DNA of 64,000 bases from Amoebophrya sp. A120 (lineage: Eukaryota > Protista > Dinoflagellata). Numbering within the stretch: position 1 is the first letter of the stretch; every line of letters begins with the position of its first letter. The stretch is from NCBI GenBank assembly GCA_905178155.1, contig CAJINV010000012.1:3475988-3539987 (forward strand). Reading direction: 5' to 3'. The notes beneath the pieces were generated by a model. It saw nothing but the letters and a program-made list of their open reading frames with translations, was not told the origin of the DNA and ran no database searches. Shown here piece by piece: positions 8,083 to 41,798 of the stretch. The position numbers were made by a program, and so were the translations under genes.

Positions 8083-9256
8083 ATGGCCACACCGAGTAGA
8101 AGTGCAAGTCGTGCCAGCTCGCAGCGCTCCTCTGCGGGAGCGGGTCAATCCCGAACAGAGGAAGACTGCGAAAGGCTCGACGCGTGCCTGGACTTTCTCG
8201 TTCGAGTCGTTCCGCAAACAATTTTTGCTCCGTGCATAATGTTGACGGAAGCAGCGGCGGCGGGCGGTGGATCAACATCTTCTACAGCCGCGAGGAATTA
8301 TGCAACAGAGTCCGAGCGACAGGAGGCGGAACTCTACGCGAAGGTCCCGCAACTACTCTCCACCCAGTCGCACCTGCTAATTCCGAGACGCCGAATCATA
8401 TCGCAAGCTGTAGCACGACTGACGCTCCTCGGCCGAAGAGGTCCGCAAGGAGGAGGGGGAGCAAGAACCGCAACCACTTCTGGTTCTGAAGACGCGCCAC
8501 TAGTAGTAAACGAGTACGACGCAGATGAGGATATCAACGAAGCACTGAAGCAGATTGCCACGGTGCCGACCCTGCAGGCCGAGCTGTGGCGCCGGGACCC
8601 AGACGCGATTCCCGAACCGCTGCAAGCCGCGGTGTTGCACGTGTTTCTGCGGGATTTGGTCGCCAATTTTCAGAGGTTTGAGGACGAGTCGTTGATCAGG
8701 CGAGGGTCGGTTGGCAGCAAACAAACCAGCGACGCTGTGGACGAAGACGGGAAAATTTTTATTACAAGGAAAAATTATCACCCCTCCCCATATCGAAAAC
8801 GAAATTCAAATTTGTGATGCTGTATCTGAGAACACAACTCGACCTGTATTGCTAGAAGGCCAAGACCAAGAGCCACAGCTGTGGCCTCGTTTGCAGGCAA
8901 TTTGTCATGCTTCTTCCCACTTCCAGCTGCCTCCTGTCATGCTGAAGCTGCAAGGCTTGTTTCCCACGCCACCCAGCACTACAGGACTCCTGTAGTGCTG
9001 GGTGGCGTTCCAAGTAGTCCGCATCTTTTGCCTTCTAGCATGACAGAGCTGATTTCTTGTGGCCACACCCACAAATCTGCATCACAGATTTTCCCTTTCG
9101 TTTTGATACGGGGAGGGGGGATTTTTCTTCTTGATAGTTTTGATCGCGGGAACACGACCATCTCCACCACCACCTGTGGAGGTCGTAGACGAACAACCAG
9201 CTGAAGATCCTCCCCGCGCCGGCCCCCCGGCAGCACCTCGTCGAATCATCTGGTAA
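8083..9256 (+). CDS. Hypothetical protein, 2 exons
   Basis: ORF from ATG 8083 continues KIL|IAGTRPSPPPP..RRIIW* after removing element 8760-9136. No recognisable domain. Confidence 0.6.
8760..9136. mobile_element. Introner family C (TIR ..GGAAAAATCCCCCTCCCCATATC)
   Basis: DR atttt/gtttt, similar to 33485-33795. Confidence 0.85.
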
Positions 9257-15443: not shown

Positions 15444-18442
15444 ATGTTCACGAGTGAGATTTTGTCCTCGCGTTTAGGATGGAATCCGTTGCCGGTGCAT
15501 TTTGCTGAGGACAACGCGTTTCGGGTGTTGGAGGTGATCTCGTCCGAGACTACCGTGTTTGAGGTCTTGCAGGACCTCTTTCTGCTCGCTTGGTTCGGCA
15601 AGCAGGCCGACGGGTTTGATACTTTTACTATCTCCTGCTCGGGGCGGGTGGAAACAAGAACTACAAGTTGTCCAGCGTCTTCTACCTCTGCCACACAACA
15701 GGCAGTTTTACTCCACGAACAAGGGCCGCCGGGCGATAACAGTATAAAAACTTCTGCAGGTGAAGAACCAGCCCCAGCGGGAACATCAACTGCAAGAACT
15801 TCAGAACAGAGCGCTCCTCACAGTGTAGATTTAGTAGAGCACCATGCACATCATGCAGCTGTTGCTGTAGCAGATCCTGATCCTGCTTCAACATCCTCAA
15901 CATTTGGCGAAGATCCTCGACACCAGGGCCGCAAGGGCATCGACATCGCGGAAGTAGACCACGTGCTCCACACCGCGGCGCGCACGTCTGTAACGCACTA
16001 CAGCTATTTTCGCGACGAGGAGTTTCTTGTTCTACGGGAAGGTCCTCGTGCGAACTCCGATTGTCAAGATGAACGACCCAGCGGCACAAAAACAAGTCGG
16101 GGAAGTAGAAATCTAGGTGGCATCAGCACGACCATAACGACCCTGCAAAGTCAGCTTCTGAAAGCAGCCGGCGAACAAGAAGCTGGTAGTACGTACAACA
16201 AGAAGACCACTGCAGACACGACAGGACCACATCCTCAAGACGAGCCTCTTCTCGGTAGTACGGTACCCGCCACGACCCGTTTGCATTCGTCGAGTGCCTG
16301 CTTGACCCCTTTCTTCCGTCACGATGACGAGAAGTACCAGGCACTAGAGACCTTGGAAGCCCGCGAGCGGTTTCTCGAGCGGCAATACCGGTTATTGCTC
16401 CTCAGGATTCAGCAGGCGACGAAAACCTCGAACAAGCTTGTGGGATGTAGTAGTAGTACAACAACTTCTACTGCTTCTTCTACTACAGGGGTGCAACAAC
16501 TTCTAGCGGACGATAACTTTATCTCCAGTTGCGTGGATCCACTCTTCGCAGTCGTGCAACGAACCGATTCGAACGCAAATTGTAAAGCGACGAGCCGCAC
16601 CGGAGAACAAGTAGGCTCGTGTAGTTCATCCCCTGCTGCTGGTGCAGCTGACCACCTCCTGCAAGAACAGGACGACAGAGAGCAAAGGACCACCGCTGGT
16701 GCTGCTTTTTTCGAAAAAACCGTTCGGCTCTTCCTCCAGGGTCCGGGGTCTACCACCGTTTCGTCGACGAGAAGACTTCGGAATCGGAAAAAAGATCGTG
16801 TCCGCGACATAAACCTGCACGACCGGGAAGCTGCAGCCGGAGCTAGATCAAGATCTAGAGCAACGGTGGAAACAACTGCGGACCACAAGACGAGCTTTTT
16901 CCAGCGAGAGCTGTTTCTTTCTGAGCGCCCTCTGGAAATTTTGAAAAAAGCGGACGGTCACGGTGCTACCTTGAAGCTCGTGGTCGATCTCCGCCGGGTC
17001 TTCGAGTCGGAGAAACAAAAGCGGAGAAGTATCCTATGTAAAAACGTCCCCACCCCATAGTCAAGATGGGGAATCTGCTAGACAAATCAACCAGCTCTGG
17101 TTGCTACGCATGACAAGTTTATTTGCCTCGTAGTGTGATCCTGTTTAGCTAGCTCCAGCAGCATTACAGAGGACCTAGCGCATCGCACTGATTCGAGCAT
17201 CACAAGCACCGAAACACAACTAGAAAATAATGCCTGTGATGGGTCTCCGCATGAGAAACATTCGCAGCGTGCGCATTTGCATTTACAACTATGGGGTTGT
17301 GGAGGGGACGTTTTTACTCAGGATAAGAAGGTTTGAGTTCGTGCCCGATTTTGCGTTTTTGAAACAAGCCGAGCTGCTATCAAAGGAAAAAAGTTCGTCA
17401 CGATCACTCATGCGCATTTTCCCAATACAAAATTTTCTGTCATGCGTAAAAACGCATCAGAGCCACACTTCATAAGGGATTTCCCTAGTGTTTCTGCAAT
17501 ACAAGGAAAGGCTGCGATGCGAAAAAAATTTGTAATGCAAAACCTGCAAGTTAGTGACTGTGACAAACTTTTTTCTCTCCATAGCTGCCAGATGTGGATG
17601 TGGAAGACGACACTGTGCAGCTAATATGCATTGTAGAAGTACAATCCTCGTGCTCGTACTAGTTGTAACTATGCATGACATCAAATCTTGTCCTTAAGGT
17701 AAAACAGCATGACAAAATCCCGTTCTGATGCTGAAAAAATTTGTAATGCATTTGTACGAGTGCGATACTTTGCAGAGAATAGCTAACAAGCTTCAACAAC
17801 TCACCAGCAGGGGTGGACGAGCAAGAAGTGAATGATAATGATAGGGCCGCCGGCGCGAAGATAGAACTACGAGAGCCGCACCAGAATCAGGTTGTTCAAG
17901 CAGATCGATCGCAGGTGCACCTTATCAAGTGCAAAAATGTCTGGGTCTGGAAGAATTCATGTTTGTCATGCTTGTCTGGCATGACTCTTAAATCGGTCAT
18001 GCACGTTACCCAAGAGCTCCGTTTTTCTTTTTCTGTGATGCAGAAGCGCAGTTTGTTATGCAGAATCTGCAACACCTAGGAGCTCAGAAACTTGTCATGC
18101 TGAGCCAGCATTTGTAGCCTCATCATGAGACGCCACCCAGCATCACAAGTTTCCAGACCCAGACACTTTTGCATTTGATACACCTTTTTTCCACTCCGTC
18201 TCCGGCACCAGGGACTACACCAGAGGAAGTACGGACTAAAGCCCGTAGTTCACAGCATCATCAGGAGGAGTTCTTCGCGGATAATGAGTGCAAAGAACTA
18301 CGGGATAGAAGTAGCGCAGCTAGCGGCAAGACAAGAGCTGTTGACAAGAGTTGTGATCCACCCGCAGGAGCTGCGCCAGGAAGTAGAAGTACTAGGACTT
18401 CTGCAGCGCGGGGGGCCGACGAGGAACGGGACGAGAGGAGAA
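15444..18442 (+). CDS. Hypothetical protein; 3' end lost in repeat/gap, start uncertain
   Basis: 570-codon ORF stays in frame across 4 introners (RRR|FEFVPDF, EL|PDVDV, QL|TSFNN, HL|FSTP). Confidence 0.65.
17030..17325. mobile_element. Introner family E (TIR ..TAAAAACGTCCCCACCCCA)
   Basis: DR agaag. Confidence 0.9.
17378..17583 (+). mobile_element. Introner family D (206 bp)
   Basis: DR gctgc, near-identical to 26775 and 28373. Confidence 0.9.
17625..17781. mobile_element. Introner family B
   Basis: DR gctaa. Confidence 0.85.
17923..18180. mobile_element. Introner family A
   Basis: DR cacct. Confidence 0.9.
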
Positions 18443-18482
18443 TATCCTGTGCAAAAGTATCGTGCTGCTCGTAGTAATTGCA
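18443..18482. mobile_element. Introner family B, left end only
   Basis: tatcctgtgcaaaagtatcg followed by unrelated repeat DNA and a gap. Confidence 0.7.
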
Positions 18483-24607: not shown

Positions 24608-27600
24608 ATGCTGCTGATGATGCCCGCTTCGCCGAGCACCGTCGCTGACGCAGGCGACACGCTCTCTTCCGGCACAACTGCAATGCCTTCCCAGCTACAG
24701 AAGTCCGCTGCGCACCGGTTTTGCCAATTCGCCATGAATTTGGTGAACCGGGAATTGGAGCCGCTGTTTGAATCCTGCATCCCGTATTTCGAGCAGGCCC
24801 AGAGCGAGTTAAACAACGGACAGGGGGAAACATTAGAGCAGTTATGCATCTTTGCAAATATGTCTGCTGTCTGGGTCATCGATCTGGAAAAATCCAAGGT
24901 TTGGCAACATGCGGGTTTTCAGGTTTTCCATGACTTCCCATGAGGGCTGGAAATGGAATGCAGGACCTAGCATGACAGATTCCGTGCTGGGATCTCTATC
25001 ATGTTCATGGTACCTGTCCTGCATCATGAGGAGCGTCCTCCTCTCAGTTTGCGCTTGGTCAAGGGAAAAAGTTACCAACTTTTGGCAATCTACTATCGTG
25101 CAACACAGATTTATTTTGCATGATCATCCGGAACTAGCATGACAAGTTGCACCAGTCGTGTTCCAGACGGAGATGACATATTTGCATTTGATAGCAGTAC
25201 AGCTGCTACCAAAAGTACATCGAAGTGCTTGAACAAAAGCTCTATGGATTGTAAAAATGTCCGGGTCTCGAAAAATGCAACCTGTGATGCTGTTTTTGGA
25301 TTCTAAAAAGATTTGTATTGCATGAGCAGCAAAAGAGGTCCAGTTTTTGCCATTGCGAGAGGGAATTTCTCATGCGGTATAGGCATTAGACAGCCCTCAC
25401 GTAATCTGTGACGCTAGGGCATGCATCACATACATCAGGACTAATGCAAAATGTGCATGACAAACCTTGCATCCTTCCAGACCCAGACATTTTTACATTT
25501 GATAAGCTCACGGAGTTCGTGAAGACAGAGCTGAATTTATGCAACACAAATCTTTGATATTCCGCGCCCGTGCAAATAAATGCATGGCAAATTACGCTAC
25601 CCTACGGTGCTAGAACATTTTACTTGTTATGCTGAGAAGTGGGATAAGAATAAGAAATTGCTATTGAAGGAAGGTTTCTGCATGATGCAGAAACCGCGTT
25701 TGATATTCCTGTACGCGCGCGGAAAGGTGTTTTTATTTACGGTGGATAGAATTACGACACGGAGCAGAACCCAAACGCAGCAGCGGATATGAATTGCAAA
25801 AGTACCGTACTAGTATAAATTGCATGACAAATTCGCTCAGCAAGACAAAAGTAGGGTGGGGGACTGGGGAGCGCCCGTAGGCCCACTGCCTCTAGGAATC
25901 AGTGGATGCTCTTCCTTCGTCTGGTCCTCTCGCCAGGTCTCACGAACGCCACCTGGGTCTCTAAACCCACCTAGGTCTGTTCTGCGTTGCATGCAAAAGA
26001 AATCTGGTTTTTTCGCAGGACGGTGTAACAGTGCCAGGATCTCTGTCTACGAGGGCGCCAGCTTCGGAAAGGAGATCTTTTGAACTTCACTTCACTTCAC
26101 TTCAAGACAAAAGTAGTTTGTAATGCTGTTTTACCTTGAGAAAAACATGCATATTTGCAATTGGTACGAGTGCGATACTTTTGCACAGGATAGCGGAGTT
26201 CCTCCAGCAACTGCAGGCCGCCATGGAGAAAGACAAAGAGGAAGTTTCGCGTATCAAATGCAAATATGTCTGGGTCTGGAAATTTGTGATGCTAAAATGT
26301 GCATGACGAAAACGCTCCCTCATGCGGGAGAGCATGACAAGTTTATTGCAGAACGCTTCTTCATACGCGCTCCGCATGAGAAAGTGCGTTTTTGTATGAC
26401 AAGATCAAGGGACGAGCAGGCTGCGACTTTTGTTGGTCATGCAATACAGATCTCACAGGAATGCAAGACTAGCATTACAAGTTACAACTTTCCAGACCCA
26501 GACATATTTGCAATGCATATCGCGGGAATTCGAGCAATTCCTGGCTGACTACAAGCAGCAGGTGTTAGCCCAGTTATGCATTGCAAAAGTATCGTACTAG
26601 TATAAATTGCAATACAAATTTTCTCAGCATGAGAAAGAAAATGTGTAATGCGGATTTACCTTAAGACAAAGATTTGTAATGCAAGACTTGCATTTATACG
26701 AATGCGATACTTTTGCACAGGATACCAGTTCGGCTACAACAACGACACGGACGGAGTGACAGGCGGAGCTGCTTTATCAAACAAAAAAAGTTCGTCACGA
26801 TCACTCATGCGCATTTTTGCAATACAAAACTGCTTGCCATGCGTAAAAATGCATCACAGCCAAACTTTATTAGGGATTTCCCTAGTGTTTCTGCAATACA
26901 AGGAAAATTTGTGATGCTAAGAAAATTTGTAATGCAAACCCTGCAAATTAGTGACTGTGATAAACTTTTTTCTCTCCATATGCTTCAGCTGGTTATGAGA
27001 GTACACACCTCCCCCTCGTCCCCCTCGTTTGTCATGCAAAATTCCAAATCCACCCTTTGCCTCTTAGTACTGTTCGCATGACAGATTTATTCGGACTCCG
27101 AAACAGCACTAAAATCCCCTAGAGATTTGTCATGCAAAAGTTGCATCTTTGCCAGCGCTTGTGCTGTTGTTCATGCAACACAAATGAGGGGGAGGGGGAG
27201 TTGGGCACTGTCATACTGCTGGGCACCAGTTGAGAACGGCGTTTAACGACGCGTCCGATGACGACCAATTGGAAGAGGAGGTTGCGCTGATGCGGATGCT
27301 ATCCTGTACAAAAGTATCTTACTCGTACTATTGCAATCATGCGTTACAAATCTTTTTTTTAAGGTAAATTCGCATTACAAATTTTACTTCTCATGCTGAG
27401 GAAATTTGTAATGCATTCATACGAGCACGATACTTTTGCAGTTCATAGGTGCTGTTCAAGCCCGAGTCTGTGGAAGATCTTTTCCATGCGGTCTTGAACA
27501 TGACGGAATACTCCTTCTTTTCCCAACTCATGCGCGAACGTGTGCGGCAAAAGCAGCTGGAGCAGAAAGCGAAGGAGGCATTGCAGCTGATCGAGAACCG

Positions 27601-29917
27601 CAAACGAAAGATCATCGAGGTATGCGAGTGCCAGGATCGAAATCGACAAAATCGAAAAAATTGTAAATGCGTATAAATGTAGGGCACGCATGGCCTGCGT
27701 TGGGGAGCACGAGCAGGCAAATGAGACCGACATCTGTACTTAGTCATGCGTCACTTGGAAGTTGGAACAAACTGAGGCTCCAACTGGTATCGGTTTTATG
27801 CGTCGCAAATTATTTCGATTTTGTTGATTTCGATTTTGGCACTCGGATACGAGGGCGAGTTCGGTCTCGCCTTTCGGTTTGTGGAGTTCGCCGTGGAGTT
27901 GTTAAATGACAAACTGTATGCTGTGCAAAAGTATCGTACTCGTAGTAATGGCAGATATGCATGACAAATCTTCCTCCTAAAGTAAAAGAGCATTACAAAT
28001 CCCACTTTTCTCCTTGCCAAAACTTGTAATGCAATTTATACCAGTGCGTTCTTACTTTTGCAATGCATAAACTGGATCCGTTTTACCACAGAACCACACC
28101 GCTCTTTGACCAGGATTATAACCAGGATAACGAACCGGCGGGACGAACATTAAAGGACTCCGACGAGTTCTCGCATTTGCACTATGCGGCCTTCAAGGAG
28201 TATGAAGAAATTGTCGAAACTGAACTACGGCAGTTTATTCTGGAGAAGGAACAATTCCCCTCGGTGGAAGCGTTTTTCGTCAACTTGCAGGACTTGATCG
28301 CGAAAGACGAGAAAAATCAGATCGACAATCGGTTGATTCAGGAAAACGAGCTGTTAGCGGAAGACCAGCTGCTATGGAGAGAAAAAAGTTTGTCACAGTC
28401 ACTAACTTGCAGGCTTTGCATTACAAATTTTCTCAGCATCACAACTTTCCTCTGTATTGCAGAAACACTAGGGAAATCCCTAATAAAGTTTGGCTGTGAT
28501 GCATTTTTACGCATGACAGAAAATTTTGTATTGCAAGAATGCGCATGAGTGATCGTGACGAACTTTTTTTGTTTGATAGCTGCGGAGATTTGGGTCGGTG
28601 CAGGACTTGATCTCGGGGGTCTTATATCCTGTGCAAAAGTTGTACTATCGTACTCGTAGTAATTGCATTTATGCAATACAAATCTCGGAGTCTCAAGGTA
28701 AAACAGCATTACAAATTCCATTTCCAAGAATGCTGGGCTAATTTGTAATGCAATTCATACTAGAAGTGCGTTAGCGTTACTTTTGCAATGCATATCTTAG
28801 ACCAAGTGGAGTTCAACTTTTTCGCGGAGATGATGCGGTTTCGGGCCCAACAGGAGAAAGTGTTTGGACTGTTCTTCCGAAGCGAGGATTTGGTTGGTAA
28901 AGATGAACTAGTACAGCCGACGACTAGTGCTAGTACTTCTGCAGGAGGAGCCACTCCGGGGACCAACTCTTCAAGTAGTCGGGGACCAACATCTACTTCA
29001 TCAATCCCCGAGCCCGAGCCGATTCCGGGCAGTGCGAATTTGTCACCGGCCGGCAGCGTGGTCGCTGGTCCCTCTTCTACTTCTGCTTCGCTTTCAGCAT
29101 CAAGTTACTTGCAAATGACGTTGCTTGTGCCGGAAAATTGCCTTGGCGGCTCCACGGTGGCGTTTGAAACGCCCGACGGGCAGAACCTCACCGCAGTGGT
29201 TCCCGAAGGATTGCAGCCCGGTGCTGCATTCACGGTAGAGTACCAACCGCTTCAGATGATGGTGATGACCTCTACGACCCCCGGTGCAGCAGCTCCTACT
29301 TCAGTTCTTGGAGACCACGATGCTGCAAGAACAAGCACAACAACCTTCACAGTGCAGGTGCCGGAAAATTGTGGCCCGGGAACGGTGCTGCTCGTAACCG
29401 CTATGGATTGCAAAAATGTCTGGGTTGTCTGGAAGGATGCAACTTGTGATGCTGCATTTGGATTCTACAAAAATCTGCATTACATGAACAGCAAAAGAGG
29501 TCCAGTTTTTACGACGGCGAGAGGGCATTTCTCATGCGGTATAGGCATCAGGTTCAGGGAGCCCTGATAAAATCTGCGATGCTACTAGGGCATGCATCAC
29601 AGACATCAGGGGTCATGCCAAAGCTGCATCACAAATCTCTGCATCCTTCCAGACCCAGACACTTTTGCATTTGATAACCGCGCCGAGCGGACAACAGGTG
29701 AATGTCGAGGTGCCGGCTGGGGTTTATCCTGTGCAAAAGTATCGTAGTCGTACTAATTCATTGCAGTATATGCATGACAAATCTTCTTTTCAAAGTAAGA
29801 CAGCATGACAAATTCCATTTCTCATGCTGAGCAAATTTGTAATGCAATTTGTACTAGTACGATACTTTTGCAGTTCATAGGGTTGTGTCGGGGATGAATT
29901 TCGAGGTGAGTATGTAG
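24608..29917 (+). CDS. Protein with two BART (ARL2-binding/CFAP36-like) domains and two C-terminal VPxG repeats, 16 exons
   Basis: Reassembled domain 1: FESCIPYFEQ..ETLEQYSCYQKYIEVLEQKLTEFV..AEFLQQL..VLNMTEYSFFSQLM. Domain 2: TTPLFDQ..EFSHLHYAAFKEYEEIVETELRQFI..EAFF..VLDQVEFNFFAEMM. Domain call is by eye. Confidence 0.7.
24843..25193. mobile_element. Introner family A (degenerate)
   Basis: DR gcagt. Confidence 0.85.
25243..25504. mobile_element. Introner family A
   Basis: DR agctc. Confidence 0.9.
25538..25748. mobile_element. Introner, family I-like (degenerate TIR)
   Basis: TATG..GATA, DR gaatt, frame restored. Confidence 0.75.
25788..26192. mobile_element. Introner family B with nested retroelement fragment
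   Basis: DR gcgga. An empty sister copy lies at 34621-34770. Confidence 0.85.
25855..26102 (+). mobile_element. 5'-truncated non-LTR retrotransposon-like insertion
   Basis: 14-bp TSD caagacaaaagtag (25841-54, 26103-16). A stop codon is followed directly by an (ACTTC)n tail. Confidence 0.75.
26252..26519. mobile_element. Introner family A
   Basis: DR tcgcg. Confidence 0.9.
26575..26724. mobile_element. Introner family B
   Basis: DR ccagt. Confidence 0.9.
26775..26980 (+). mobile_element. Introner family D (206 bp)
   Basis: DR tgctt. Confidence 0.9.
26994..27215. mobile_element. Introner family J
   Basis: TIR tatgagagtac..ctccccctc / gagggggag..gcactgtcata, DR ctggt/ctgct. Confidence 0.8.
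27300..27447. mobile_element. Introner family B
   Basis: DR gatgc/ggtgc. Confidence 0.85.
27621..27849. mobile_element. Introner family K (GT-AG compatible)
   Basis: ~37-bp TIR tatgcgagtgccaggatcgaaatcgacaaaatcgaaa, DR cgagg. Confidence 0.9.
27917..28069. mobile_element. Introner family B
   Basis: DR aactg. Confidence 0.9.
28373..28578 (-). mobile_element. Introner family D (206 bp, reverse orientation)
   Basis: DR gctgc, reverse complement of 26775-26980. Confidence 0.9.
28625..28794. mobile_element. Introner family B
   Basis: DR tctta. Confidence 0.9.
29402..29676. mobile_element. Introner family A
   Basis: DR accgc. Confidence 0.9.
29725..29879. mobile_element. Introner family B
   Basis: DR gggtt. 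Confidence 0.9.
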
Positions 29918-31481
29918 AGAAATACTAAGTTGTGGAGTAAATAAGCTCGTCCTGCTGGAGCTGCTGCTGTACCTCTACCTGGAGGTTTATCTGGAGTTCG
30001 TCTATCAACGAAGAGATGGTGGTCGTGAAGCCTACCTCGTCTTCTCTGACAATAAACCACACGAGCATGTTAACCGAGGTTGTTTGTACTTGTTTTCCAA
30101 GAAAAAATCTCGAAACTCGACCTGTATTGTACATGTACAACGAACATCAAACCACGTCAGCCGAATTTTTTTTCAACAGCAAATAGAAGAAGTACAACTG
30201 GGAAGATTTCTAGGCTTCCTCACCTGTAAATATATTACGCAAACTTCTAGAAGTAGAATGAATACAGAATCACACGACGACAGCATGTGCATGCGAGAGG
30301 ACAAAGATCCGAGATCAGAAGCACAAACATAGGGCGTTGAAAAAGCGTAGGGTCCGCACCTCCAGCATTTCCTGGGATGTAGCAGCGGAAAACACTTTTT
30401 GGATTTTATAATATCATTGCAAAGACGAGTGGATTTATAAAAAAAACTTTCGCGCATGGTCCTTTTCCTACAACACACTGCGCACCAACCAAACCGGATT
30501 TTTTGAATCATTTCAATAAAACATGAACACTATTCAAATTCTCGCGCTCCTAGATCCTATTTATTGGGCAGACAAATTTTCACGTAATAAAAAAAGACAA
30601 AAGGCACCAGCTTAGGCGGGTATTATTTCGCTTGCTCCGCGGGGAAACCCTGGTGCATTTTTCGACATCTGCGATGTAAATTGTAATATATAAACTGAAT
30701 AAGAAATAATTCTGAGGCAATAATGCGTCGCCATCTTCAACATCAACACGTTCTTGGCGTGACCTGCTATCCCTAACGACGTCCAGGAGATCTTCAGACT
30801 TGGTCGCAGGTACCCTGTGTATCAGGATCAAAAGCGGCCGCTCAGTCAGGGAACTACACAGTCGATGGTAAACCGAAAGATCTTCGATGCCATGAACATG
30901 AAAATGATCACAGCATCAGTCGTTCCTGCTGTTTCATCCTTCTCTTTCGGTCGTCGGGTCTTGTGTCATGGTAAGTACTATACCTTTACATCTTCTAACT
31001 TTTGACTACAGCGACACCAAAACAAACACATTCGAGGTGAGATTGTTTTTAGTTAGTGGTTTAAGTTTAACTTCGTTCATCTAAGAGTATGACTCCCCAC
31101 GAGCACGTCGACTTCATCGTTTGGAGAGATGAACATATGTGATCATCATCATCGTCTGACCTCAATCCCCGCACGATTGAGACTGATATGTTGTTCTGAT
31201 ACAAACAAAATATGATTGGAAGACCAAAGATCGATCATGTTGGCCAACAAGTACTCTGCTCGAGGACCACGGGGTGACAACATTTTTCCCACGACAAAAT
31301 TCCAACCTCCACAGGGGTACTTCTATAAGCAGTCGGAGCAGTAGTTACTAAACACAACACGACCTTCAACATCTTCGCTCTCCTGACAGTATACCTGGCA
31401 GGGGGAGAAGCGAAGAACTGTCGAGCAGCAAGACAAGACATTATACCAATAGGACCCTGACCACATCCGGAACGTCGCAAG

Positions 31482-34400
31482 ATGCTTTCCGACGACGGGG
31501 GCCAACAAAAGCTCTACCTGTTGGAGCAGGCAATCGTGCTCCTTTTCGGGCCGCACACGCCCCAGCGACAAGAAGCCGAGAACTTCGTGAACACGTATGC
31601 ACTGCAGCAAAAGTTGTATCGTCCTAGTAGTGAACTGCCCTTATTAGAACAAATTTGCTCAGCATGAAGATGACAACTGGAAGCGGCCGTAATGTTGTTT
31701 TAGGTTAGGAAGGCAATTTGTCATCCATATTATCTGCAATTAGAAGTATAGCACGGGTGCGATATTACAACTTTTGCACAGGATAACACGCACCACTTAG
31801 CTACTTTCACAAGTCTTTTCGAGCAAACGAAATCGGAGCAGATTCAGTACTATCAAATGCAAAAATGTCTGGGTCTGGAAACTTGTGATGCTGAATTGCG
31901 CATGATTGAAGCGCTTCCAATGGCAGCCAAGCATGACAAGTTTTTGAGAGGCCTGCTGAAGCTGATGCCTAGCACGCATTACAAATTGTGCTATTGCATG
32001 ACAAAGAAAGCTTCTCTTTTGCTGCTTATGCAACACAGATTTTCCAGGAATGCATGACACGCACTACAAGTTCCACTTTTTCAGACCCAGACATTTTTAC
32101 ATTTGATAAGTACTACTGCCTCATGCGGCTGGACCAGAACGTGGAGCAGTCGGTGGAGCTACGAAGGGATGTGATCGTGCCGTTTATTCTAACCCAGTGC
32201 TGTTCGGAGAAGTTCGATTTGAGTCTGTTATGAAATGCAAAAGTATCGTACTCGTTGTATAAATGCATGACAACTTCCCTGCTCAGCATGAGAAATAAAA
32301 TTTGCAATGCGGATTTGACTTGAGAAAGAAATTTGTAATGCATGATCGCAATTACTACGAGGACGATACTTTTGCACAGGATATCTGTCCAAAGCGAACA
32401 AGAACAAATTGTCCTTCATCTACTACTATCAGATGCAAAAGTGTCTGGGTCCTCTGGAAGACTGCAACTTGTGATGCTGCGTTTGGATTCCAAAAAATTC
32501 TGTATTGCATGAGCAGCAAAGGGAATGCGATTTCTGCTACGCGGAGAGGGCATTTGCCATGCGGAATAGGCATCAAGATGCCCTCAAAAATCTGTGATGC
32601 TAGGGCACGCATCACAGACGAGACATCATGGCTCATGCTGCAAAACGTGCATCACAAGGCTGAGAAAAATCTTCCAGACCCAGACACTTTTGTAATCCAT
32701 AACTACAAATGCGTTGTGCTGGACTACTGCCACGACGATCATGGAGGACACGTACAAAACCAGCATCAGCGCGAGATTTATTTCTGGGCAACGGCCTTCT
32801 CCGACATTTTCGACCACTCTGTTTGCAGAGTGGCCATACAGGAAGCGGAGTGCCAGGATCGACAGCGGGTGGAGATGTTGAAAGCTAATGCAGTACTGAA
32901 GATGTCCTCTGGCAGCTCAGGAGGTGGCGGCAGCACTAGTTCCTCCTCAACATCCGCGGTCGCAAACAACATTACCGCTCCTAGTTCCCTGGCATCTTTA
33001 GCCTCCTCTCACTCCACCGCGGACGCGGTAAAGTACCGGTTGGTGGAGTTAATGAACCGCGTGTTGTTCGAGTTATCCGAGAACCTTCTCTGCGAAGACG
33101 CGGCCTTCCGGTTGGACACTATGGATTGCAAAAATGTCTGGGTCTGGAAGGTTGCAACTTGTCATGCTGTTTTTGGACTCTAAAAAAATTTGTATTGCTT
33201 GACCAGCAAGAGGAGCCCAGACTGTGCTACGCGGAGAGGGCATTTGTCATGCGGAATAGGCATCAGGAAGCCTTCCAAAAATCTGTGATGCTAAATCATA
33301 CACTACAGGCATCATGGGTCATGCAAAATATGCATGACAAACCTGGCACTCTTCCAGACCCAGACAGTTTTGCACTTGATAGACACGGCGGAAAAGCGAA
33401 ATCGAGCGAGTGTCTGCAAGGAACGGATCAAGCAGAAGGAGTGGGATTTCTTTGTCAACATCTGGATGAATGTGCTGGGAAAGCTATCGAAAGGAAAAAT
33501 CCCCCCTCCCCATATCGAAAACGAAATTTGTGATGCTGTATTTGAGGTCACAAATCGACTCGTCATGCTAGAAGGCCAAGAGCCGCAGTCGTGGCCTCGT
33601 TTGCAGGCAATTTGTCATGCTGTTTCCCACTCTCAGCTGCCTCCTATCATGCTGAAGATGCAAGGCTTCCCCACGCCACCCAGCACTGCAGTCCGCATCT
33701 TTTCCCGTGTAGCATGACAAAGCTGATTTGTGACAACAAATCTGCATCACAGATTTCCGTTTTGATATGGGGAGGGGGGATTTTTCCTTTTGAGAAAAGC
33801 CGTTGGTGGAAAGTAGCTCGAGCAGTAGTTGCACAACTAGTTCAACGTCGACCCAAAACAGCAGTACAACAAACTCTTCTGCAACAAATTCAAATCATCA
33901 ACCACTGCTGTACCAGTTTGGTGGTCACCAGCACCGCGCTGCTGACCACCAGCAGCAGGAGTATCAGGTAATCGCGGCCAACAACGCAATATGAACTGCA
34001 AAAGTATCGTACTCGTATAAATGCATCGAATTTTCTCAGCATGCGAAATGAAATTTCAATTTGTCATGCTGATTTACTTTAAGAAAAAAATTTGTAATGT
34101 TGCAAGACCTGCATTTATACGAATGCGATACTTTTGCACAGGATACGCAAGACTGCTGAATCTGCAGTCGGACTGTCTCCTGGCGATGAAGGAATTCATT
34201 CCCTGGGTTGAGTATCAAAAGGAAAAATCCCCCCTCCCCATATCAAAACGAAATTTCTGATGCTGGATTTGGATACACAAATCAAATTTGTGTTGCAGTA
34301 GAGGAAGGCACGCAGATCCTGAGCCTAGGCGGGGGCCTTTTGTTGTAGGCGCCTAGCATGGTAGACGGCTACCCTGTAGGCCTTACAGCGTTACAAATCG

Positions 34401-37400
34401 CCGGCATAACCACGTGGCGGGCAGCCTGAGCGTGCCTTCTTGCAAGACAGACCCGGCCTGTGGTCAAAAATCAGCAACACAAATTAGCGGAGGCATACCT
34501 TTTCGATATGGGGAGGGGGGATTTTTTCTTTTCATATTGAGGCGGTCAAGGTTTGGAACCAAACCACGATCCAAACGCTGCAGAGGCTCATGCTGTCCGC
34601 TATTGAGCGGAGGAAAAAAATATGAATTGCAAAAGTATCGTACTAGGCTAAATTGCATGACAAATTCGCTCAGCAAGACAAAAGTAATTTGTAATGCTGT
34701 TTTACCTTGAGAATAACATTTGTCATGCATATTTGCAATTGGTACGAGTGCGATACTTTTGCACAGGATAAAAAAACGAAGAGCAGTCGCTGAGACTGTC
34801 CGACGCTTCTGTTTCCACCTGTGTATCAAATGTAAAAATGTCTGGGTCTGGAACAAGAATGCAAGATTTGCGATGCAGTTTTTCCATGACCCATGAGGCC
34901 TGGAATGCAGCGCCTAGCATGACAAACGCCGTGAGGTGTCTACCATGCTTATCCTGCATGAGAAACTCCCTGTCAAACAGGTCAAAAGTGGACATCTTTT
35001 GGTAATCATGCAACACAAGTTTTTGCATGCTTCAGATTCAGCATCACAAGTTGCATTCTTCCAGACCCAGACACTTTTGCACTTGATATTGTGGAAGCGA
35101 GAACAACCCGGGGTTCCCGCACTCCGGGAACCAAACCACTTCCCTTATGCCAGCCTCAGAATGGAAATCCTCAAAGTGGAAATGATTTGTAATGCAAAAA
35201 AACGACTCCAGTTGAAGCGCCATTTCTAGTCGGCGCATGACAAATTTACCGGGCACTCAAAGCATGTCTGTCATGCTAGTTAGGGCAAAAGGGTGCCCTT
35301 CTCTCGTGCTGATCAGCAACACAGTTCTGAACCCGGAGAAGCACAATAGCCGGCCTCCATTGCGTCCTCTGCAATGCAGTTTTTTTGGTGTCGCATTTCA
35401 TGCATCACAAATTATTTCCACTTTGAGAATTTCCATTCTGAGGCTTTCATATCCCTGTTCCCCGTCTGCTGCGACGTGTTCGACGCGCTGTTGAAACGGA
35501 AGTTCTCGTCGGAGAACCAGATCGACAAGTTGAAAGCGTTGTCCGTTTTTCGCATCACCGAGTTCTTTTTGGAGCAGCTGGCGGACAGCGATCTGGTGCC
35601 AACAGTTGGTGGAATATCAAACACTTCTAGCGATGTTGGTGCCAACATGACAGGTAATCAACAGCTCGGTGTGATTTATTCCGCCGCGAACTCCACAGCG
35701 ACGACGCCAAATGTGGTGGCGAGCAGCGAAACCGCCGGGATGATCATGAACGGCAGCCAGCAAGAACACGGGATGCACCACCTCCGTTTGATCCAGAGCC
35801 AAAACCCTTTCGAGGAAGACAGCGATTTGTGGCTGGATATGAATTGCAAAGGCATTGTACTATTATGAATTGCATTACAAAGTTCCTTGGCATGAGAAAT
35901 GGAATTTGTAATGCTGATTGACCTTAGGAAAAAGTCTTGTAATGCATGACTGCAATTACTACGAGTGCGATGCTTGTTTTGCACTGGATACTGGAGAAAA
36001 AAGTCGAAGTCGTCGACTCTTTAGCGGAAGCGGTGCTGGAAATTATTACAATGAAAAATGCCCCCTCCCCATATCAAAACGGAAATCTGTGATGCAGATT
36101 TGTGGTCACAAATCTGCTTTGTGATGCTAGAAGGCAAAAGATGAGGACTGTAGCGCTGCCTAGCGTGGGAAAGCCTTGCAGCTCCAGGATGACAGGATGC
36201 AACTGGAAGTGGGAAACAGCATGACAGATTGCCTGCAATTTAGGCCGCAGCTTCGTCTCTTGGCCTTCTAGCAATACAAGTCGACTTGTGTATTCAAATA
36301 CAGCATCACAAATTCGCGCATCTTCCGTTTCCGATATGGGGTTGGGGCTTTTTTCACTTTGATAGAAATCTACGTGAATTTACGGAAAAAACTGGGCACG
36401 TACAACACGAACGTTGTGGAGAATAAACACAAGGCGTCGAAGAAATCGAAACCCAGCACTTCCGCGAAGATGCACCCCAATAATTCGGAGCAAAATCTCA
36501 GCCAGCAGCTGCGGGAGAGGGACAGAGCCAATAATAATGACATTAATTTACAGCATCTACTCGACGCGGAAGGCGAGGCGTTGCGGCTACTTGGGGTGTT
36601 GCTGCCCCAGATCAGCAATTATTTCGCGCACCCAAGGTTTGCGATTGCCAACTCGGTGGAGGTATCAAATGTAAAAGTGTCTGGGTCCTCTGGAAGAATG
36701 CCAGACTTGTCATGCAGGTTTTCCATGACTCATGAAGTCTGGTATCGAGGACATAGCATGACAGATTCTGTGAGAGTTCTATCGTGCCTATCCTGCATGA
36801 GAAACTGCCGCTCGATTAGGTCAAAAGTGGGCAGCTTTTGGCAATCATGCAACACAGATTTTTACATGATTCAGATTTAGCATGACAAGCTGCTTTGTTC
36901 CAGACCCAGACACTTTTGCATTCCATAGGAGGAGTTTCTGTCTGAGTTTTTCCGCGAGGTGGAGCATTTGATCGTTCCAGAAATAAACTACGCACAGAAT
37001 GCTGGTGATCATCTTCCCCAAGGTGCTGGACCTCAACAAAGCAGTAGTAGTAGTTCTACCACAACAGCAGGCCAGCAACCACCACCAGCTCGTCGCAGTG
37101 GACCTCTTATCAAGTGCAAATATGTCTGGGTCTGCAAACTTGTAATGCTGAATGGTCATGATTGACTGCGTTTTTAAGTGCAGAAGTGCAGCATGACAAA
37201 TTTTTCAAACGGTTTCTCATGCGCAGAACGCATTACGAAGTCCGCTTTGGTATGACGAAAGTGTGGCACTTTGTGCGCTGCTTATGCAATACAGATTTTT
37301 TAGATATGCGAAACGCGCGATACAACAGTTTCAACCTTTGTCATTGTCCAGACACAGAGATATTTGCGGTTGATCCCTCTGTTCACCAGACAACTCCTGC

Positions 37401-40400
37401 GACCGGTGTTCGAGTCGCTGCTGTCCTCGTTTGTCATGCGCATGGCGCTATGCATTGCAAAAGTATCGTACTCGTATAAATGCATTACAAATTTGCTCAG
37501 CATGAGAAATGAAATTTGTAATGCGGATGTACTTTATGAGAAAGATCTGTAATGCATGACTCCATGACTCCAATTACTACGAGTGCGATACTTTTGCACA
37601 GGATAGGGGCTGCCGAGCTGGTTTTCGGTCCACGACGAAGACGATAAGGACCACGTGGAATTTCTGGAGTACCAGAAACACTTGAAGAACTATCTGAAAG
37701 TTCTGTTAAAGGTTGACGAATATGCATTGCAAAAGTATCGTACTAGTATGAATTGCATATACAAATTTGCTCAACCTGACTAAATTACCGATAGAAACCG
37801 GATTTGTCTTGCTAGTCTGGCATTTATAGTACGAGTACGACGCTTTTGCATTGCATAGCGAACAGATTGTGTTTCGCTGGATCCAGCAGGAATGCGAAAA
37901 TGTGGGCACGAAATACCTCCAGCACTTGATCTATTTTAGTACTTCGAATGCAGCTGGCGGAACGCCGACACCAGCAGCCACTCTGCATCAACAGCAGCCC
38001 CTCCCGGCGGCATTGCTAGTCGCGCCACACCATCCGGAGGCTGCGACGAATGTGTTCTGTGGGGCGGGGGGTCGTGGTGAATACAACAGCATCGGCGGGA
38101 TGATTTCTTCTTACCAACAACTGCAATACCTCACCGACCCGTCTGTGCTGTTGGTCTCCTCCTGTGCTGCAGTAGCTGCCACGACGGCTAACAAGTCTAA
38201 AGACCACGCTATGATCAATCAGTACGAAGCCTCGCCGAGTTACCTCCGCGCCCGGCAGAAGGAATTTCGACAAAGAGCGAATTACGACTGCGTTCCGGCA
38301 CACGTGGTGAGTTTCTGTGTGTGGCTCGAGACCCTCGCAGATTTGCGGGCAAAGGAGATACCGACGTATCAGACAAGCCACCCGCTGGTGCAAGTGGTAA
38401 CGTACCTCTTCTCAGAGCAGTTTCTGCAGAAATTGCCCAATGGAAGTTGTACTAGCGAAATAAATTTCGTCTCGACGTCGCGGTCACACTCAGCAGGTGT
38501 AGAGAACAACGCTGTTGTCCACGCCGATAATAATCACGACCAGATCCGATCCTCCAGCGAACGAGGCGGGTCAGCGTCTTCGTCCTCTTCCTACGCGAAA
38601 CTCCTTGACCAAGTGAAGCTGGCGATTTCAGATTTGATATGAAGTGCAAAAGTATCGTACTCGTATAAATGCATGACAAATTTCCTTAGCATGAGAAACA
38701 AAATTTGCAATGCGGATTTGCCTTGAGAAAAAAACTTGTAATGCATGATTGCAATTACTACGAGTACGATACTTTTGCACAGGATATTTGATCGTGAAGT
38801 ACAAAGTCATCGTGGAGAAAGACAACGGTAATAGTACCGGTAAGAGTCTGTTGAATATGCATTGCAAATATGTCTGGGTCTGGGAGGATCCAAACTTGTC
38901 ATGCTTCTATTTTTGGACTCTCAAAAATTTGTGTTGCATGAGCAGCAATAGCAATAGGAGTCCAGAAATTCCCCGTCCAAGTCTTGGACGGGGCATTTCT
39001 CATGCAGGATAGGCATCAAGAAGCACTCGGAAGATGCTAGGACATACATCACAGACGTCATGGGTGATGTAAGGCGTGCATGACAAATCTTCCAGTCTTC
39101 CAGACCCAGACATATTTGCAGTTGATATTGAAGAACGTGCTGCAATTTTTCGTCGAGAACCTCCAGAATCTGCGGATCCGGAAACGTGTGGCCTACAACT
39201 TCAACAAATTCGTGAAGAAAATCCGGTCCAGTCTCTCCACCGCGAGCCCGACCGCGGGTTTGTCGATAGAGATGGTGAACCACATTGCGTCCGCGAAATT
39301 GCTTCAAGTGCCGTTGGAGGTGGTCACCGACGACGCGGACGACTCGCAGGAGAACATCTTCGAGGCGTTGGGCGTGGTGACATGCGGCGTGGACGGAAAG
39401 TTCACCCGGGATTTTTTCCAAAAAATCCTCTCGGTACCAGTCCAGCAGCTGCAGGAACTAGTGATTTCGGAGAAGTTTGGCGGCAACGAACAGCAATTTT
39501 TCACCGCGTTACGGGATCGACATTTGGACTCCCCGTCGAAACTAGGATTGTCCCAGATCCAGCTCGATCCGGTCACCGCGGCGCACCAATTGGAACCCTT
39601 GCTCGGCAGTTACTGCTGCAGACTCTTTTCCTGCTTGTCTACCTTTTCCAAACCGTTCACCCAACTCCGACCGGATCTGGTCGCGGAATGGAGAGAACTC
39701 CTGGTTTTAATATCCAAGAAAAAAACATTGTAGGTGTAACTTTTTTGGAGGAACAGCATCACAAATTTGTCTGGCATGACAGCAAAAACCTGTCATGCGC
39801 AGATAGCACGTGAAAACGCCCTTTAATGGATCTTACGATGCATGCCAAGCATGACAGACGCCATCATCTTGCATGTTGCGCATCACAAATTTACATATAA
39901 CAGCGTTTTTTTCTTGGATATTTAACCGAGAAAGTGCACTCCCAGTTCGAGGCGGCGCACAAACCCGAGGTAAAGTCCGCCTTTCGGGTCTTTCTGCGGC
40001 AGATGATGCGGGTCCTGGACGCGCAGACCCTGTTCGAAGCTCTGTCGGTACTATTGCCGAAAATGTACGGCGTGGAGTTGAAACGGCTGGGCAATGTGGA
40101 AGAGGGAATCAGAAATAGTTGTCAGAGTGGTGGTGGACGAGGAGGTTCTTCATCTGCAAGCAGCTCTTCGTTCAACAGCGCAACGAATCAAAATCATAAT
40201 CAGGCCCCACAACAGCAGCAGGGTGGGCCTCTAATGATCGATAGCAGGAACAGAGAAGCCATATCGGACTTTACGAGCTGCAAAAGTATCGTACTCGTAG
40301 TGATTGCTGCTATGCATGACAAATCTCTTTCCTAAGGTAAAACAGCATTACAAATTTCAATTGTAATGCTGAGCTAATTTGTGATGCAATTTGTGCTAGT

Positions 40401-41798
40401 ACGATGCTTTTGCATTCGATAGACTTCATGGCGACGCAATTTGATGACATCCGCGACTTGACCAATTTCTCCAGTCACTTGACAGGTATAGAGTAGAACA
40501 TAATGATAATAGCGAACGATTGATCATGGTGCGACGCGGCTGATATGTTTTATGGAGCTCTTTTTTTTTAGTTGGAATTGTACTCCTTTACGCTCCTGCA
40601 CATAAATCATTCTCAACATCGTTCAAAATCCAGAGTGAATCAAACTTCCCCACAGCTACCAAGGAGATCCACGCGCCACCAGGCTCGGCGAACCCAGAGC
40701 AACAGCTCACAAGCCTCCAGGAGACCTTCTGGGCACAGAATCTGAGAACCGTGTTTTCTCTCCCCGCTCGGTACCTGAATTTCCAGAAGGAAGCACTGAT
40801 CCTTCCGGATCTCGGGTCTTCGTCAGCTGCTTCCGCATTCGTTTTGTCGTCCTCTAGTTCCGGCGGCGGCGACTTGATCTTCATCCGGCAAGAGATCATT
40901 GACCAACTATTGGACTTCTTCAAAAACTTGGCCCTCCGCTGTCCGGGTATCAAAAGCAAATGTGTCTGGGTCTGGAAAGTAGACCTCGTGATGCTACAGT
41001 ATGCTGGATAGGCTAGGGGCTCTCAAGTGCAGCAAAGCATGACAAGTTTATTTTACCTGACGCCATTTTATGCGTAGCACGCATGAAAAACTGCGTTTTT
41101 GCATGACGAAAAACAAAGTGGCGCCTTTGCTGGCCGTGCAATACAGATTTATTTTCAGGGCTACAAGACATGCAACAAAAATTCAACTTTTCATCCAGAC
41201 CCAGACATATTTGCAATGCATACCGGGCGTTTTGTCGCAGTTCCTGTCCGCGTATCCAGAGGATGTCTTCCGTATCATCGGCGCCATGCGGCTGGGCGAA
41301 ACCGCAACAAACCACGAAGCCGTGATGAAGCAAACGAACACGTTTTTGGAGCTTTGCGTGCAGGTGGTGATGAGGGGGGGAGAAACAGAAAGTGAAAGTA
41401 GAGAAACGCCGCTTGATGCAAGAACTCCAGGAGAGCAGGGCGCCGGCGAGCAGGACCGAAATCAGAAAGCAGCTTGTTGGTGGAAAACAGACGTGTTTCT
41501 GAGACACTGTTTCGCCCCGATATTCCAGCGGCTGTTGGCAGAAACCACGACGGGGACAACCGTTGTAGGCAGCACGACGAATAACAGCAGCAAAACCCCG
41601 GACGCAAAACGCGCATACACGGAAATCGGGGTGTTGGTGGCGCGGGATGCGGGCATTTGGGGAATCGCGAACGAGATTTTGACTGCAGCTGGGCTGAATG
41701 TCAGCGGGTTTTTGGAAAAATACCGGATTTTCGAAGCTGGAAGTAGAGACTACGTGCCTATTGGAAAACATTTTGCGGACGAAATGTTTCGGCTGTAG
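31482..41798 (+). CDS. XPOT: Exportin-T (tRNA exportin, Los1/PAUSED family, importin-beta superfamily), 24 exons
   Basis: Reassembled blocks resembling exportin-T: RQEAENF, NKNKLSFIY, RNRASVCKERIK..FFVNIW, DCLLAMKEFIPWVE, CCDVFDALLKRK, EFLEYQKHLKNYL, RIRKRVAYNFNKFVK, NIFEALGVV, VKSAFRVFLRQMMRVL. Confidence 0.75.
31596..31785. mobile_element. Introner family B (degenerate)
   Basis: DR acacg. Confidence 0.85.
31851..32108. mobile_element. Introner family A
   Basis: DR agtac. Confidence 0.9.
32229..32383. mobile_element. Introner family B
   Basis: DR tctgt. Confidence 0.9.
32427..32701. mobile_element. Introner family A
   Basis: DR actac. Confidence 0.9.
33120..33381. mobile_element. Introner family A
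   Basis: DR gacac. Confidence 0.9.
33485..33795. mobile_element. Introner family C
   Basis: DR aaagc. Confidence 0.9.
33990..34145. mobile_element. Introner family B
   Basis: DR cgcaa. Confidence 0.9.
34213..34536. mobile_element. Introner with family C TIRs and a different core
   Basis: DR ttgag. Confidence 0.9.
34621..34770. mobile_element. Introner family B
   Basis: DR aaaaa. Confidence 0.9.
34824..35088. mobile_element. Introner family A
   Basis: DR ctgtg/ttgtg. Confidence 0.85.
35146..35451. mobile_element. Introner family H
   Basis: ~50-bp TIR tatgccagcctcagaatggaaatcctcaaagtggaaatgatttg, DR tccct. Confidence 0.9.
35838..35990. mobile_element. Introner family B
   Basis: DR ctgga. 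Confidence 0.85.
36044..36364 (-). mobile_element. Introner family C (core reversed relative to 33485)
   Basis: DR gaaat. Confidence 0.9.
36663..36927. mobile_element. Introner family A (GT-AG compatible)
   Basis: DR ggagg. Confidence 0.9.
37108..37375. mobile_element. Introner family A (degenerate right TIR)
   Basis: DR cctct. Confidence 0.85.
37449..37605. mobile_element. Introner family B
   Basis: DR ggcgc/ggggc. Confidence 0.85.
37721..37857. mobile_element. Introner family B
   Basis: DR acgaa/gcgaa. Confidence 0.85.
38638..38786. mobile_element. Introner family B
   Basis: DR tttga. Confidence 0.9.
38856..39127. mobile_element. Introner family A
   Basis: DR ttgaa. Confidence 0.9.
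39711..39920. mobile_element. Introner family L
   Basis: TIR tatccaagaaaaaaac / gtttttttcttggata, DR tttaa. Confidence 0.9.
40272..40421. mobile_element. Introner family B
   Basis: DR gactt. Confidence 0.85.
40486..40571 (+). other. Canonical GT-AG spliceosomal intron (86 bp)
   Basis: CAG|GTATAG ... poly-T tract TAG|. The phase-1 join keeps the XPOT frame. No TIR or DR. Confidence 0.8.
40948..41222. mobile_element. Introner family A
   Basis: DR ccggg. Confidence 0.9.

What the first reader, a model, noticed from the sequence alone, without database searches (positions are those of the whole stretch)
26775..36364. Elements function in either orientation
Seen: the 206-bp family D is forward at 17378 and 26775 but reverse-complemented at 28373, in the same gene as 26775. 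The family C core is reversed at 36044 versus 33485. Family B puts its TATCCTG end first (4322, 28625) or last (32229, 38638). All restore the frame. Known: branch points and polypyrimidine tracts are strand-specific. Inference: removal depends on symmetric features (stem, DR, bidirectional motif), so it is either structure-guided RNA splicing as in euglenid nonconventional introns or DNA-level excision like ciliate IESs.
Basis: partly seen in the sequence, partly recalled or inferred. Interest (0 to 1): 0.72.

Follow-up and report, generated by a model that had tools for sequence, protein, structure and literature searches.

The report
Transposon introns spliced either way round
In a parasitic dinoflagellate, small jumping-gene copies sit in coding sequence facing either way and are missing from the spliced messages both ways round, likely because their two ends pair into an RNA stem that is cut at fixed distances; the elements are already published, but this rule was not found in the papers searched.

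Summary
Observation confirmed. The window holds at least 68 TAT...ATA inverted-repeat elements with 5-bp direct repeats, all in + strand genes. Family copies face the genes 29:27. Spliced contigs lack forward and reverse D and B copies, each joint removing the element plus 5 nt; family C agrees by gap sums and protein. The contigs also lack GT-AG introns and a DNA-like run keeps the elements, so removal is at RNA level; IES-type excision is unlikely. Matching proteins are labelled Amoebophrya sp. A120: these are the published introner elements (PMC7789003). Not found in the papers searched: orientation independence; the upstream repeat copy is kept in 7 of 7 informative cases, putting the cuts 0-1 nt before TAT and 4-5 nt after ATA; arm mismatches favour G-U over A-C on the transcribed strand (93:49, p=0.0003). 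Only 2 of 68 can be read as GT-AG. Orientation alone does not exclude a spliceosome, since the inverted repeats give the same pyrimidine tract both ways. Catalyst unknown.

The parts
17378..17583 (+). Family D element, 206 bp, reference orientation, direct repeat GCTGC
   Evidence: ORF restoration; no reads laid
26775..26980 (+). Family D element, forward, direct repeat TGCTT
   Evidence: skipped together with 26994 in the 441-nt joint with 3 letters between, X3, X4, X7
28373..28578 (-). Family D element, reversed, direct repeat GCTGC
   Evidence: 211-nt joint in X3, X4, X7
33485..33795 (+). Family C element, forward; 3' end mutated to GAGA; direct repeat AAAGC
   Evidence: X3 gap sum exact; P0001 continuous
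36044..36364 (-). Family C element, reversed; direct repeat GAAAT
   Evidence: X3 gap sum exact; P0001 continuous
8760..9136 (+). Family C element with imperfect direct repeat; upstream copy kept in P0003
34213..34536 (-). Divergent family C element; reversed call is weak (margin 0.06)
4322..4470 (-). Family B element, TATCCTG end first
   Evidence: ORF restoration; no reads laid
26575..26724 (+). Family B element, TATCCTG end last
   Evidence: 155-nt joint in X3, X4, X7
26994..27215 (.). Singleton element; imperfect repeat at position 4 places the cut at repeat position 4 or 5
27300..27447 (-). Family B element, TATCCTG end first; imperfect repeat, upstream copy kept
   Evidence: 153-nt joint 27296 to 27450 in X3, X4, X7
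27917..28069 (-). Family B element; gene model P0002 uses an internal TATG as 5' cut, contigs remove the whole element
   Evidence: 158-nt joint in X3, X4
28625..28794 (-). Family B element, TATCCTG end first
   Evidence: 175-nt joint in X3, X4, X7
32229..32383 (+). Family B element, TATCCTG end last
   Evidence: P0001 continuous
37449..37605 (+). Family B element; imperfect repeat, upstream copy kept
37721..37857 (+). Family B element; imperfect repeat, upstream copy kept
   Evidence: X3 piece resumes at 37859
38638..38786 (+). Family B element, TATCCTG end last
   Evidence: X3 gap sum 431 exact
24608..29917 (+). Host gene 1 (P0002, 620 aa; faint BART-domain hit below the Pfam cut-off), interrupted by 15 elements
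31482..41798 (+). Host gene 2 (P0001, 1675 aa; Exportin-T family hit PF19282, E 1.2e-07), interrupted by 22 elements and a GT-AG intron
30971..31011 (+). GT-AG intron with CTAAC branch motif, absent from the X3 contig (end inferred from gap sum)
40486..40655 (+). GT-AG intron, 170 nt, absent from an X7 contig and from P0001

Best explanation
These are transposon-like inserts (TAT...ATA inverted ends, 5-bp direct repeats) that face their host genes either way and are absent from spliced transcripts in both orientations, likely because the two arms pair into an RNA stem that a splicing machine would cut by distance rather than by GT-AG. Steps: (1) inferred: a non-autonomous DNA transposon inserts in random orientation and duplicates 5 bp; (2) predicted: the arms (positions about 8-20 and often 1-3) pair in the pre-mRNA whichever strand is read; (3) shown: exactly the element plus 5 nt is removed and the upstream repeat copy is kept, so the cuts lie 0-1 nt before TAT and 4-5 nt after ATA; (4) shown for four junctions: the ancestral protein length is restored; (5) inferred: the catalyst is slightly more likely a dedicated cut-and-ligate activity, as proposed for euglenid nonconventional introns, than the U2 spliceosome (about 55:45).
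For: Seven joints covering 8 elements in X3 and X4, 5 of the 7 also in X7, each of size element+5. X3 contig gap lengths over 35 elements match element+5. GT-AG introns are also absent from the contigs. Upstream repeat copy kept in 7 of 7 informative cases, in both orientations of family B. 2 of 68 elements can be read GT/GC-AG in any equivalent register; all 16 dinucleotides occur at the 3' cut. Terminal stem predicted in 63 of 67 sense and 61 of 67 antisense folds. Arm mismatches G-U:A-C on the transcribed strand 93:49 for positions 8-30 (sign-flip p 0.0003), positive in both orientations of family B; sense folds more stably in 42 of 67, p 0.03. Homologue P0008 aligns without gaps across four junctions. 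U1 snRNA was not detected in this organism (PMC7789003).
Against: No excised intron, lariat, circle or intermediate was seen. The G-U excess weakens with window length (138:91, 161:125, 200:169 with p 0.14; four windows tried), is absent in family A forward, C and D forward, and the polarised substitution test showed nothing (paired 76:68, unpaired 52:50). Positions 4 and 7 of the arms are mostly unpaired yet position 4 is C or G in 132 of 136 ends, which points to sequence reading as well as pairing. The RNA contigs are of one study and are labelled RNA only by guess; four of the seven register cases rest on protein records only. No raw reads cover the exons, so splicing efficiency by orientation was not measured.
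Confidence: 0.78

Rival explanations
1. An adapted U2 spliceosome reads the terminal repeats as linear sequence signals (TAT as donor substitute, an A 16-18 nt from the element end as branch point, then a U tract, 3' site by distance); pairing is incidental.
For: The inverted repeat gives the same A-Y-TTTT stretch at the 3' end in both orientations. The 5' TAT carries 1 change against 6 in the 3' ATA (too few to be significant). Nearly all spliceosomal proteins and U2, U4, U5, U6 are reported present. Fritillaria splices transposon-derived non-canonical introns with its spliceosome (PMC11282704 section 6).
Against: No dinucleotide constraint at the 3' cut; the putative branch A and U tract lie inside the predicted stem; G-U excess on the transcribed strand; classical branch motifs are not enriched in elements.
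Confidence: 0.16
2. The elements are cut out of DNA in a somatic or stage-specific genome, like ciliate IESs.
For: Transposon-like ends with TA at each terminus and precise loss of one direct repeat fit DNA excision; only one DNA-like sample was examined and its life stage is not known.
Against: Eight listed X1 contigs run without a difference across exon-element borders at depth 40-46, the same as the contig over the intergenic stretch; X6 shows none of the 7 joints; the element-free contigs also lack GT-AG introns; the kept repeat copy follows the gene direction in both orientations of family B.
Confidence: 0.03
3. The elements are self-splicing ribozymes.
For: Strong folding (median z about -7) and a shared internal motif GCAT[TGC]ACAA (72 + and 68 - inside elements against 2 and 6 outside).
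Against: A catalytic core working on both strands of many unrelated families of 111-689 nt is implausible; no Rfam match.
Confidence: 0.03

Closest known systems
Amoebophrya A120 introner elements (Farhat et al. 2021, PMC7789003)
   Same: Non-canonical introns with 8-20 nt inverted repeats starting TAT, seven looser bases, then AAA; 3-5 nt direct repeats; hairpin model; RNA-seq supported. Window exons match proteins labelled A120 at 99-100%. These are those elements.
   Different: The paper leaves the splice position relative to the hairpin as variable or unknown (Fig. 3 legend); its 'orientation' passages concern genes only. Two-way insertion, the fixed register and the G-U strand bias were not seen in the sections and supplement text read; its figures could not be seen.
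Euglenid nonconventional introns (Nomura et al. 2025, PMC12501133; review PMC11282704)
   Same: No GT-AG, paired inverted ends, direct repeats at borders, longer unpaired 3' overhang than 5', MITE origin proposed, catalyst unknown.
   Different: Euglenid code is N3CDG...CH'G N5-6 followed by an exonic purine; here TAT...ATA N4-5 with no exonic preference. Circular excised RNA is reported there and untested here. Unrelated lineage: it works like them but is not a member.
Canonical TIR/TSD introners (Aureococcus, Micromonas, Symbiodinium; Gozashti et al. 2022, PMC9860276)
   Same: TIR, TSD, precise restoration of the mRNA.
   Different: Those carry or co-opt GT/GC and AG sites; here 2 of 68 could.
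Fritillaria borealis non-canonical introns (review PMC11282704; PMC13326754)
   Same: TIR/TSD transposon origin, non GT-AG ends, spliced genome-wide.
   Different: They keep preferred ends (AG-AC, AG-AT) and U1 is conserved; here the 3' dinucleotide is free and U1 was not detected.
IS3EU/GingerRoot DNA transposons (PMC10045372)
   Same: TA..TA termini.
   Different: Their TSD is usually 6 bp, here 5; no transposase was identified.
Ciliate internal eliminated sequences (recalled, no call)
   Same: Transposon-derived inserts in coding sequence with precise loss of one repeat.
   Different: Removed from DNA in a separate somatic nucleus; here the DNA-like run keeps them.

Membership tests
Amoebophrya A120 introner elements | Inverted repeat starting TAT, seven looser bases, then at least three A | tested here: met
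   TAT at 67 of 68 5' ends; A at positions 11-13 in 58, 58 and 63 of 68; TAT was part of the search rule
Amoebophrya A120 introner elements | 3-5 nt direct repeat at the exon/intron borders | tested here: met
   5-bp repeat perfect in 54 of 68, one or two mismatches in 14; the repeat was part of the search rule
Amoebophrya A120 introner elements | Repeated, non-canonical, removed from transcripts | tested here: met
   56 of 68 in six families; 2 of 68 GT-AG compatible; joints
Amoebophrya A120 introner elements | Host organism | tested here: met
   Window exons match P0001-P0003, labelled Amoebophrya sp. A120, at 99-100%
Euglenid nonconventional introns | N3CDG...CH'G N5-6 | purine signature | tested here: not met
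   Ends are TAT...ATA; no base preference in repeats or flanks (signature)
Euglenid nonconventional introns | Paired terminal stem | tested here: met
   Predicted in 63 of 67 folded elements; G-U bias; not probed experimentally
Euglenid nonconventional introns | Excised as full-length circles without lariat | not testable with these tools
   No raw reads of this genotype
Canonical U2 introner | GT/GC donor and AG acceptor carried or co-opted from the TSD | tested here: not met
   2 of 68
Ciliate-type IES | Element-free somatic DNA | tested here: inconclusive
   X1 contigs carry the elements at full depth and X6 shows none of 7 joints, but X1's joint table was cut, contigs drop rare forms and life stages were not sampled
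Ciliate-type IES | Element-free molecules keep spliceosomal introns | tested here: not met
   X3 and X7 contigs lack the GT-AG introns
IS3EU/GingerRoot | TA..TA termini | tested here: met
IS3EU/GingerRoot | Usually 6-bp TSD | tested here: not met
   5 bp removed and duplicated
IS3EU/GingerRoot | Cognate DDE transposase in an autonomous copy | not tested
   No whole genome held; no transposase search was run

The most novel reading that the evidence does not exclude
Amoebophrya has a second, spliceosome-independent mRNA splicing system: a nuclease-ligase that recognises the paired transposon ends as a ruler, cuts at the foot of the 5' arm and 4-5 nt past the 3' arm, and so erases any insertion of this transposon clan in either orientation at any sequence. 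It would be a convergent twin of the euglenid system and a sequence-independent, scarless RNA excision tool.
Probability: 0.4. Interest if true: 0.88.

Novelty: already known. Interest (0 to 1): 0.5.

Why it matters
How Amoebophrya removes tens of thousands of introns without GT-AG ends is an open question since 2021. Two-way insertion explains why these transposons can invade any coding position at little cost. A fixed, transcript-polarised cut register and a G-U bias turn the vague hairpin idea into testable rules: where to look for the branch point or cut ends, and which mutations should kill and rescue splicing. If the catalyst is not the spliceosome, it is a new mRNA splicing pathway.

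Tried and rejected
No RNA holder was listed as such by the run search; X3, X4, X7 are RNA by guess, upheld here by loss of GT-AG introns. Contig depth inside elements (about 1-4 in clean bins against 64 for the spliced X3 contig) cannot measure splicing efficiency and was not used. A net gain of one codon (GT and AG co-opted from the two repeats) was rejected: gap lengths are element+5 and P0008 is ungapped. The CACAG inside family B's end is not used as acceptor at 26575 (155-nt joint). Register 4 versus 5 could not be split: both mismatches at repeat position 5 (5614, 45435) are synonymous. Seven of 14 imperfect repeats are synonymous and were left out of the 7 of 7. Polarised substitution test was negative. 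Rfam: no match. Earlier scan notes: none. Huff et al. 2016 is not held, so whether Aureococcus elements splice both ways rests on uncertain recall; Roy et al. 2023 and Henriet et al. 2019 were seen only as cited. Catalogue handling: 70 candidates, 4 overlapping alternatives dropped, 2 added by eye; 4 further similar stretches were not catalogued; the two elements over 420 nt were treated as follows: one (5614) left out of folding, 25788 (405 nt) kept.
Full report
Observation. Self-comparison and an end search found elements that begin TAT, end ATA, have inverted arms and sit between 5-bp direct repeats. The working catalogue is 68 elements: 70 candidates, 4 overlapping alternatives dropped, 2 added by eye. 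Four more similar stretches were left out. Because TAT/ATA and the repeat were search criteria, their frequency is not an independent test. Clustering on both strands put 56 elements in six families. Orientation counts are B 12:11, A 11:9, C 2:2, D 2:1 and 1:2 twice; in B the nearest relative faces the other way for 14 of 23 copies.

Host genes. Removing each element plus 5 nt gives long + strand ORFs throughout the window, among them 645 aa at 24494-29914 and 1398 aa at 31461-40493. All host ORFs are on the + strand, so orientation on the window is orientation to the transcript. Element length plus 5 falls evenly in the three frames (20, 25, 23), so retention would break two thirds of the frames. 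Exon searches returned one protein each, labelled Amoebophrya sp. A120. The reconstruction matches P0001 over 1388 aligned residues and P0002 over 607 without a difference for the best registers; P0002 has 13 extra residues at one element. P0001 has an Exportin-T hit, P0002 a BART hit below the cut-off.

Removal is at RNA level. One 8793-nt contig of X3 maps in pieces over 24500-40266. Of its 7 listed gaps, spanning 35 elements, 5 equal the sum of element+5 exactly, one was off by 1 through my own start error at 25538 (corrected), and one leaves 344 nt, which two GT-AG introns can supply (30971-31011 and 31087-31389; other GT-AG choices also sum to 344). An X7 contig skips 325 nt, equal by hand calculation to element 40272 plus 5 and the 170-nt GT-AG intron 40486-40655. 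In 26525-29000, X3 and X4 (one sample) show 7 joints covering 8 elements and X7 (another sample, same study) shows 5 of them: 155 (B, TATCCTG last), 441 with 3 letters between (D forward plus a singleton), 153 (B, TATCCTG first), 234, 158, 211 (D reversed) and 175. X6 shows none of the 7. Family C forward and reversed are covered by gap sums and by P0001, not by a listed joint. In X1, eight listed contigs cross exon-element borders without differences at depth 40-46; its joint table was cut, it may be the source of the assembly, and contigs hide rare forms.

Cut register. Fourteen repeats are imperfect; 7 differ non-synonymously. In all 7 the product has the upstream copy: 8760 (P0003), 26994 and 27300 (P0002), 37449 and 37721 (P0001), 60568 and 60766 (P0004, source unnamed). 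For 27300 and 37721 the contigs show it at nucleotide level, and for 26994 a one-letter difference in the next piece fits. The 26994 case forces the cut to repeat position 4 or 5: the intron is (N)TAT...ATA plus 4-5 nt. Family B keeps the upstream copy in both orientations, so polarity follows the gene. Homologue P0008 aligns to P0004 without gaps over residues 35-136, across junctions after residues 41, 68, 82 and 101, so splicing restores the ancestral length. P0002's extra 13 residues correspond to a 5' cut at an internal TATG (27955/27956) with the same 3' cut and no repeat: a single gene-model case that suggests the repeat is not the signal.

Signals. Only 2 of 68 elements can be read GT/GC-AG in any equivalent register, all 16 dinucleotides occur at the 3' cut, and the repeats have no base preference. 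Arm positions 1-3 and 8-20 are complementary in 51-66 of 68, positions 4 and 7 in 24 and 19. Folding predicts the terminal stem in 63 of 67 sense and 61 of 67 antisense strands, median z -6.9 and -6.0 against 15 shuffles each. Because orientation is random, G-U and A-C arm mismatches should balance unless the transcribed strand matters. Counts are 93:49 (positions 8-30, sign-flip p 0.0003), 138:91 (p 0.005), 161:125 (p 0.03) and 200:169 (p 0.14); isolated mismatches give p 0.02-0.05; family B is positive both ways, family A forward is not. A consensus-polarised test was negative, and unpaired positions showed no strand-biased mutation (52:50). I read this as moderate support for selection on an RNA stem. 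The arms also put an A-Y-TTTT stretch near the 3' end in both orientations (pyrimidine fraction 0.74 and 0.74), so orientation independence by itself does not exclude a spliceosome.

Comparison. PMC7789003 (abstract, sections 5, 10, 11, 12, 16, find passages, supplement part 2 of 5 and a search of the supplement; figures not visible) describes these elements, the TAT...AAA motif for A120, 3-5 nt repeats, the hairpin model, a missing U1 and unknown borders. PMC9860276 (passages, section 7) allowed for opposite-orientation insertion in its method and describes introners that carry or co-opt splice sites. PMC12130899 (passages) required the same orientation and reports an A120 TIR family with LTR-integrase-like ORFs. 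PMC12501133 (passages, Discussion) gives the euglenid code. PMC11282704 (passages, section 6) reviews Fritillaria and euglenids. PMC8469720 (passages) reports symmetrical fungal introns that work on one strand only. PMC13326754, PMC11453091 and PMC10045372 were read as passages. Searches found no statement of two-way splicing for Amoebophrya; subscription papers, among them Huff 2016 and Roy 2023, are not covered, so absence from print is not proven.

Verdict. A real feature of a published class of elements. The session adds orientation independence, a transcript-polarised register and a strand bias for G-U, all from one window and one RNA study. Structure-guided RNA splicing 0.78, linear-signal spliceosome 0.16, DNA excision 0.03, ribozyme 0.03. 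Interest 0.5.

Noticed in passing
whole window: 68 of 68 elements lie within coding gene spans, which hold 22987 of 47654 non-element bases (p 3e-22); the shared internal motif is nearly absent outside elements. Spans were drawn after splicing, so partly circular. Suggests targeting of genes or loss of intergenic copies.
   Followed up: partly
25788-26192: A family B element carrying a roughly 250-nt secondary insert between 14-nt direct repeats and ending in short tandem repeats, like a SINE; the whole 405 nt plus 5 fits the spliced gap.
   Followed up: partly
27917-28074: Gene model P0002 keeps the first 39 nt of the element and cuts at an internal TATG that can pair 7 bp with the 3' end; possible alternative splice site or annotation artefact.
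   Followed up: partly
all families: Internal motif GCAT[TGC]ACAA, a degenerate echo of the terminal repeat, occurs on both strands of most elements (72 and 68 hits); candidate transposase or splicing-factor site.
   Followed up: partly
imperfect direct repeats: Five of the 7 non-synonymous differences are A upstream versus G downstream, and 7 of 14 imperfect repeats are synonymous.
   Followed up: no
35338-35451, run X9: Several hundred reads of another genotype start inside a copy of this element behind a 22-letter loose end that I recall as a template-switch adapter, and run on into foreign flank: a transcript that begins within the element and keeps its single arm.
   Followed up: no
29917-31482: The X3 contig runs from host gene 1 through the intergenic stretch into host gene 2; read-through, overlapping untranslated regions or an assembly join.
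   Followed up: no
5614-6302, 7162-7662, 10880-11695: Tandem arrays of a unit of about 125-130 bp; one array lies inside a 689-bp TAT...ATA element within a gene that looks like an inositol polyphosphate 5-phosphatase (label recalled, not searched).
   Followed up: no
17378 and 28373: Two of the three family D copies, in opposite orientation, have the same direct repeat GCTGC on the + strand; chance or target preference.
   Followed up: no
26981-26993: An 8-nt exon (after removal of one repeat) between two elements is spliced correctly.
   Followed up: partly
5403-5562, 18443-18482, 56102-56272, 63806-64000: Further degenerate, partial or window-cut element copies not in the catalogue.
   Followed up: no
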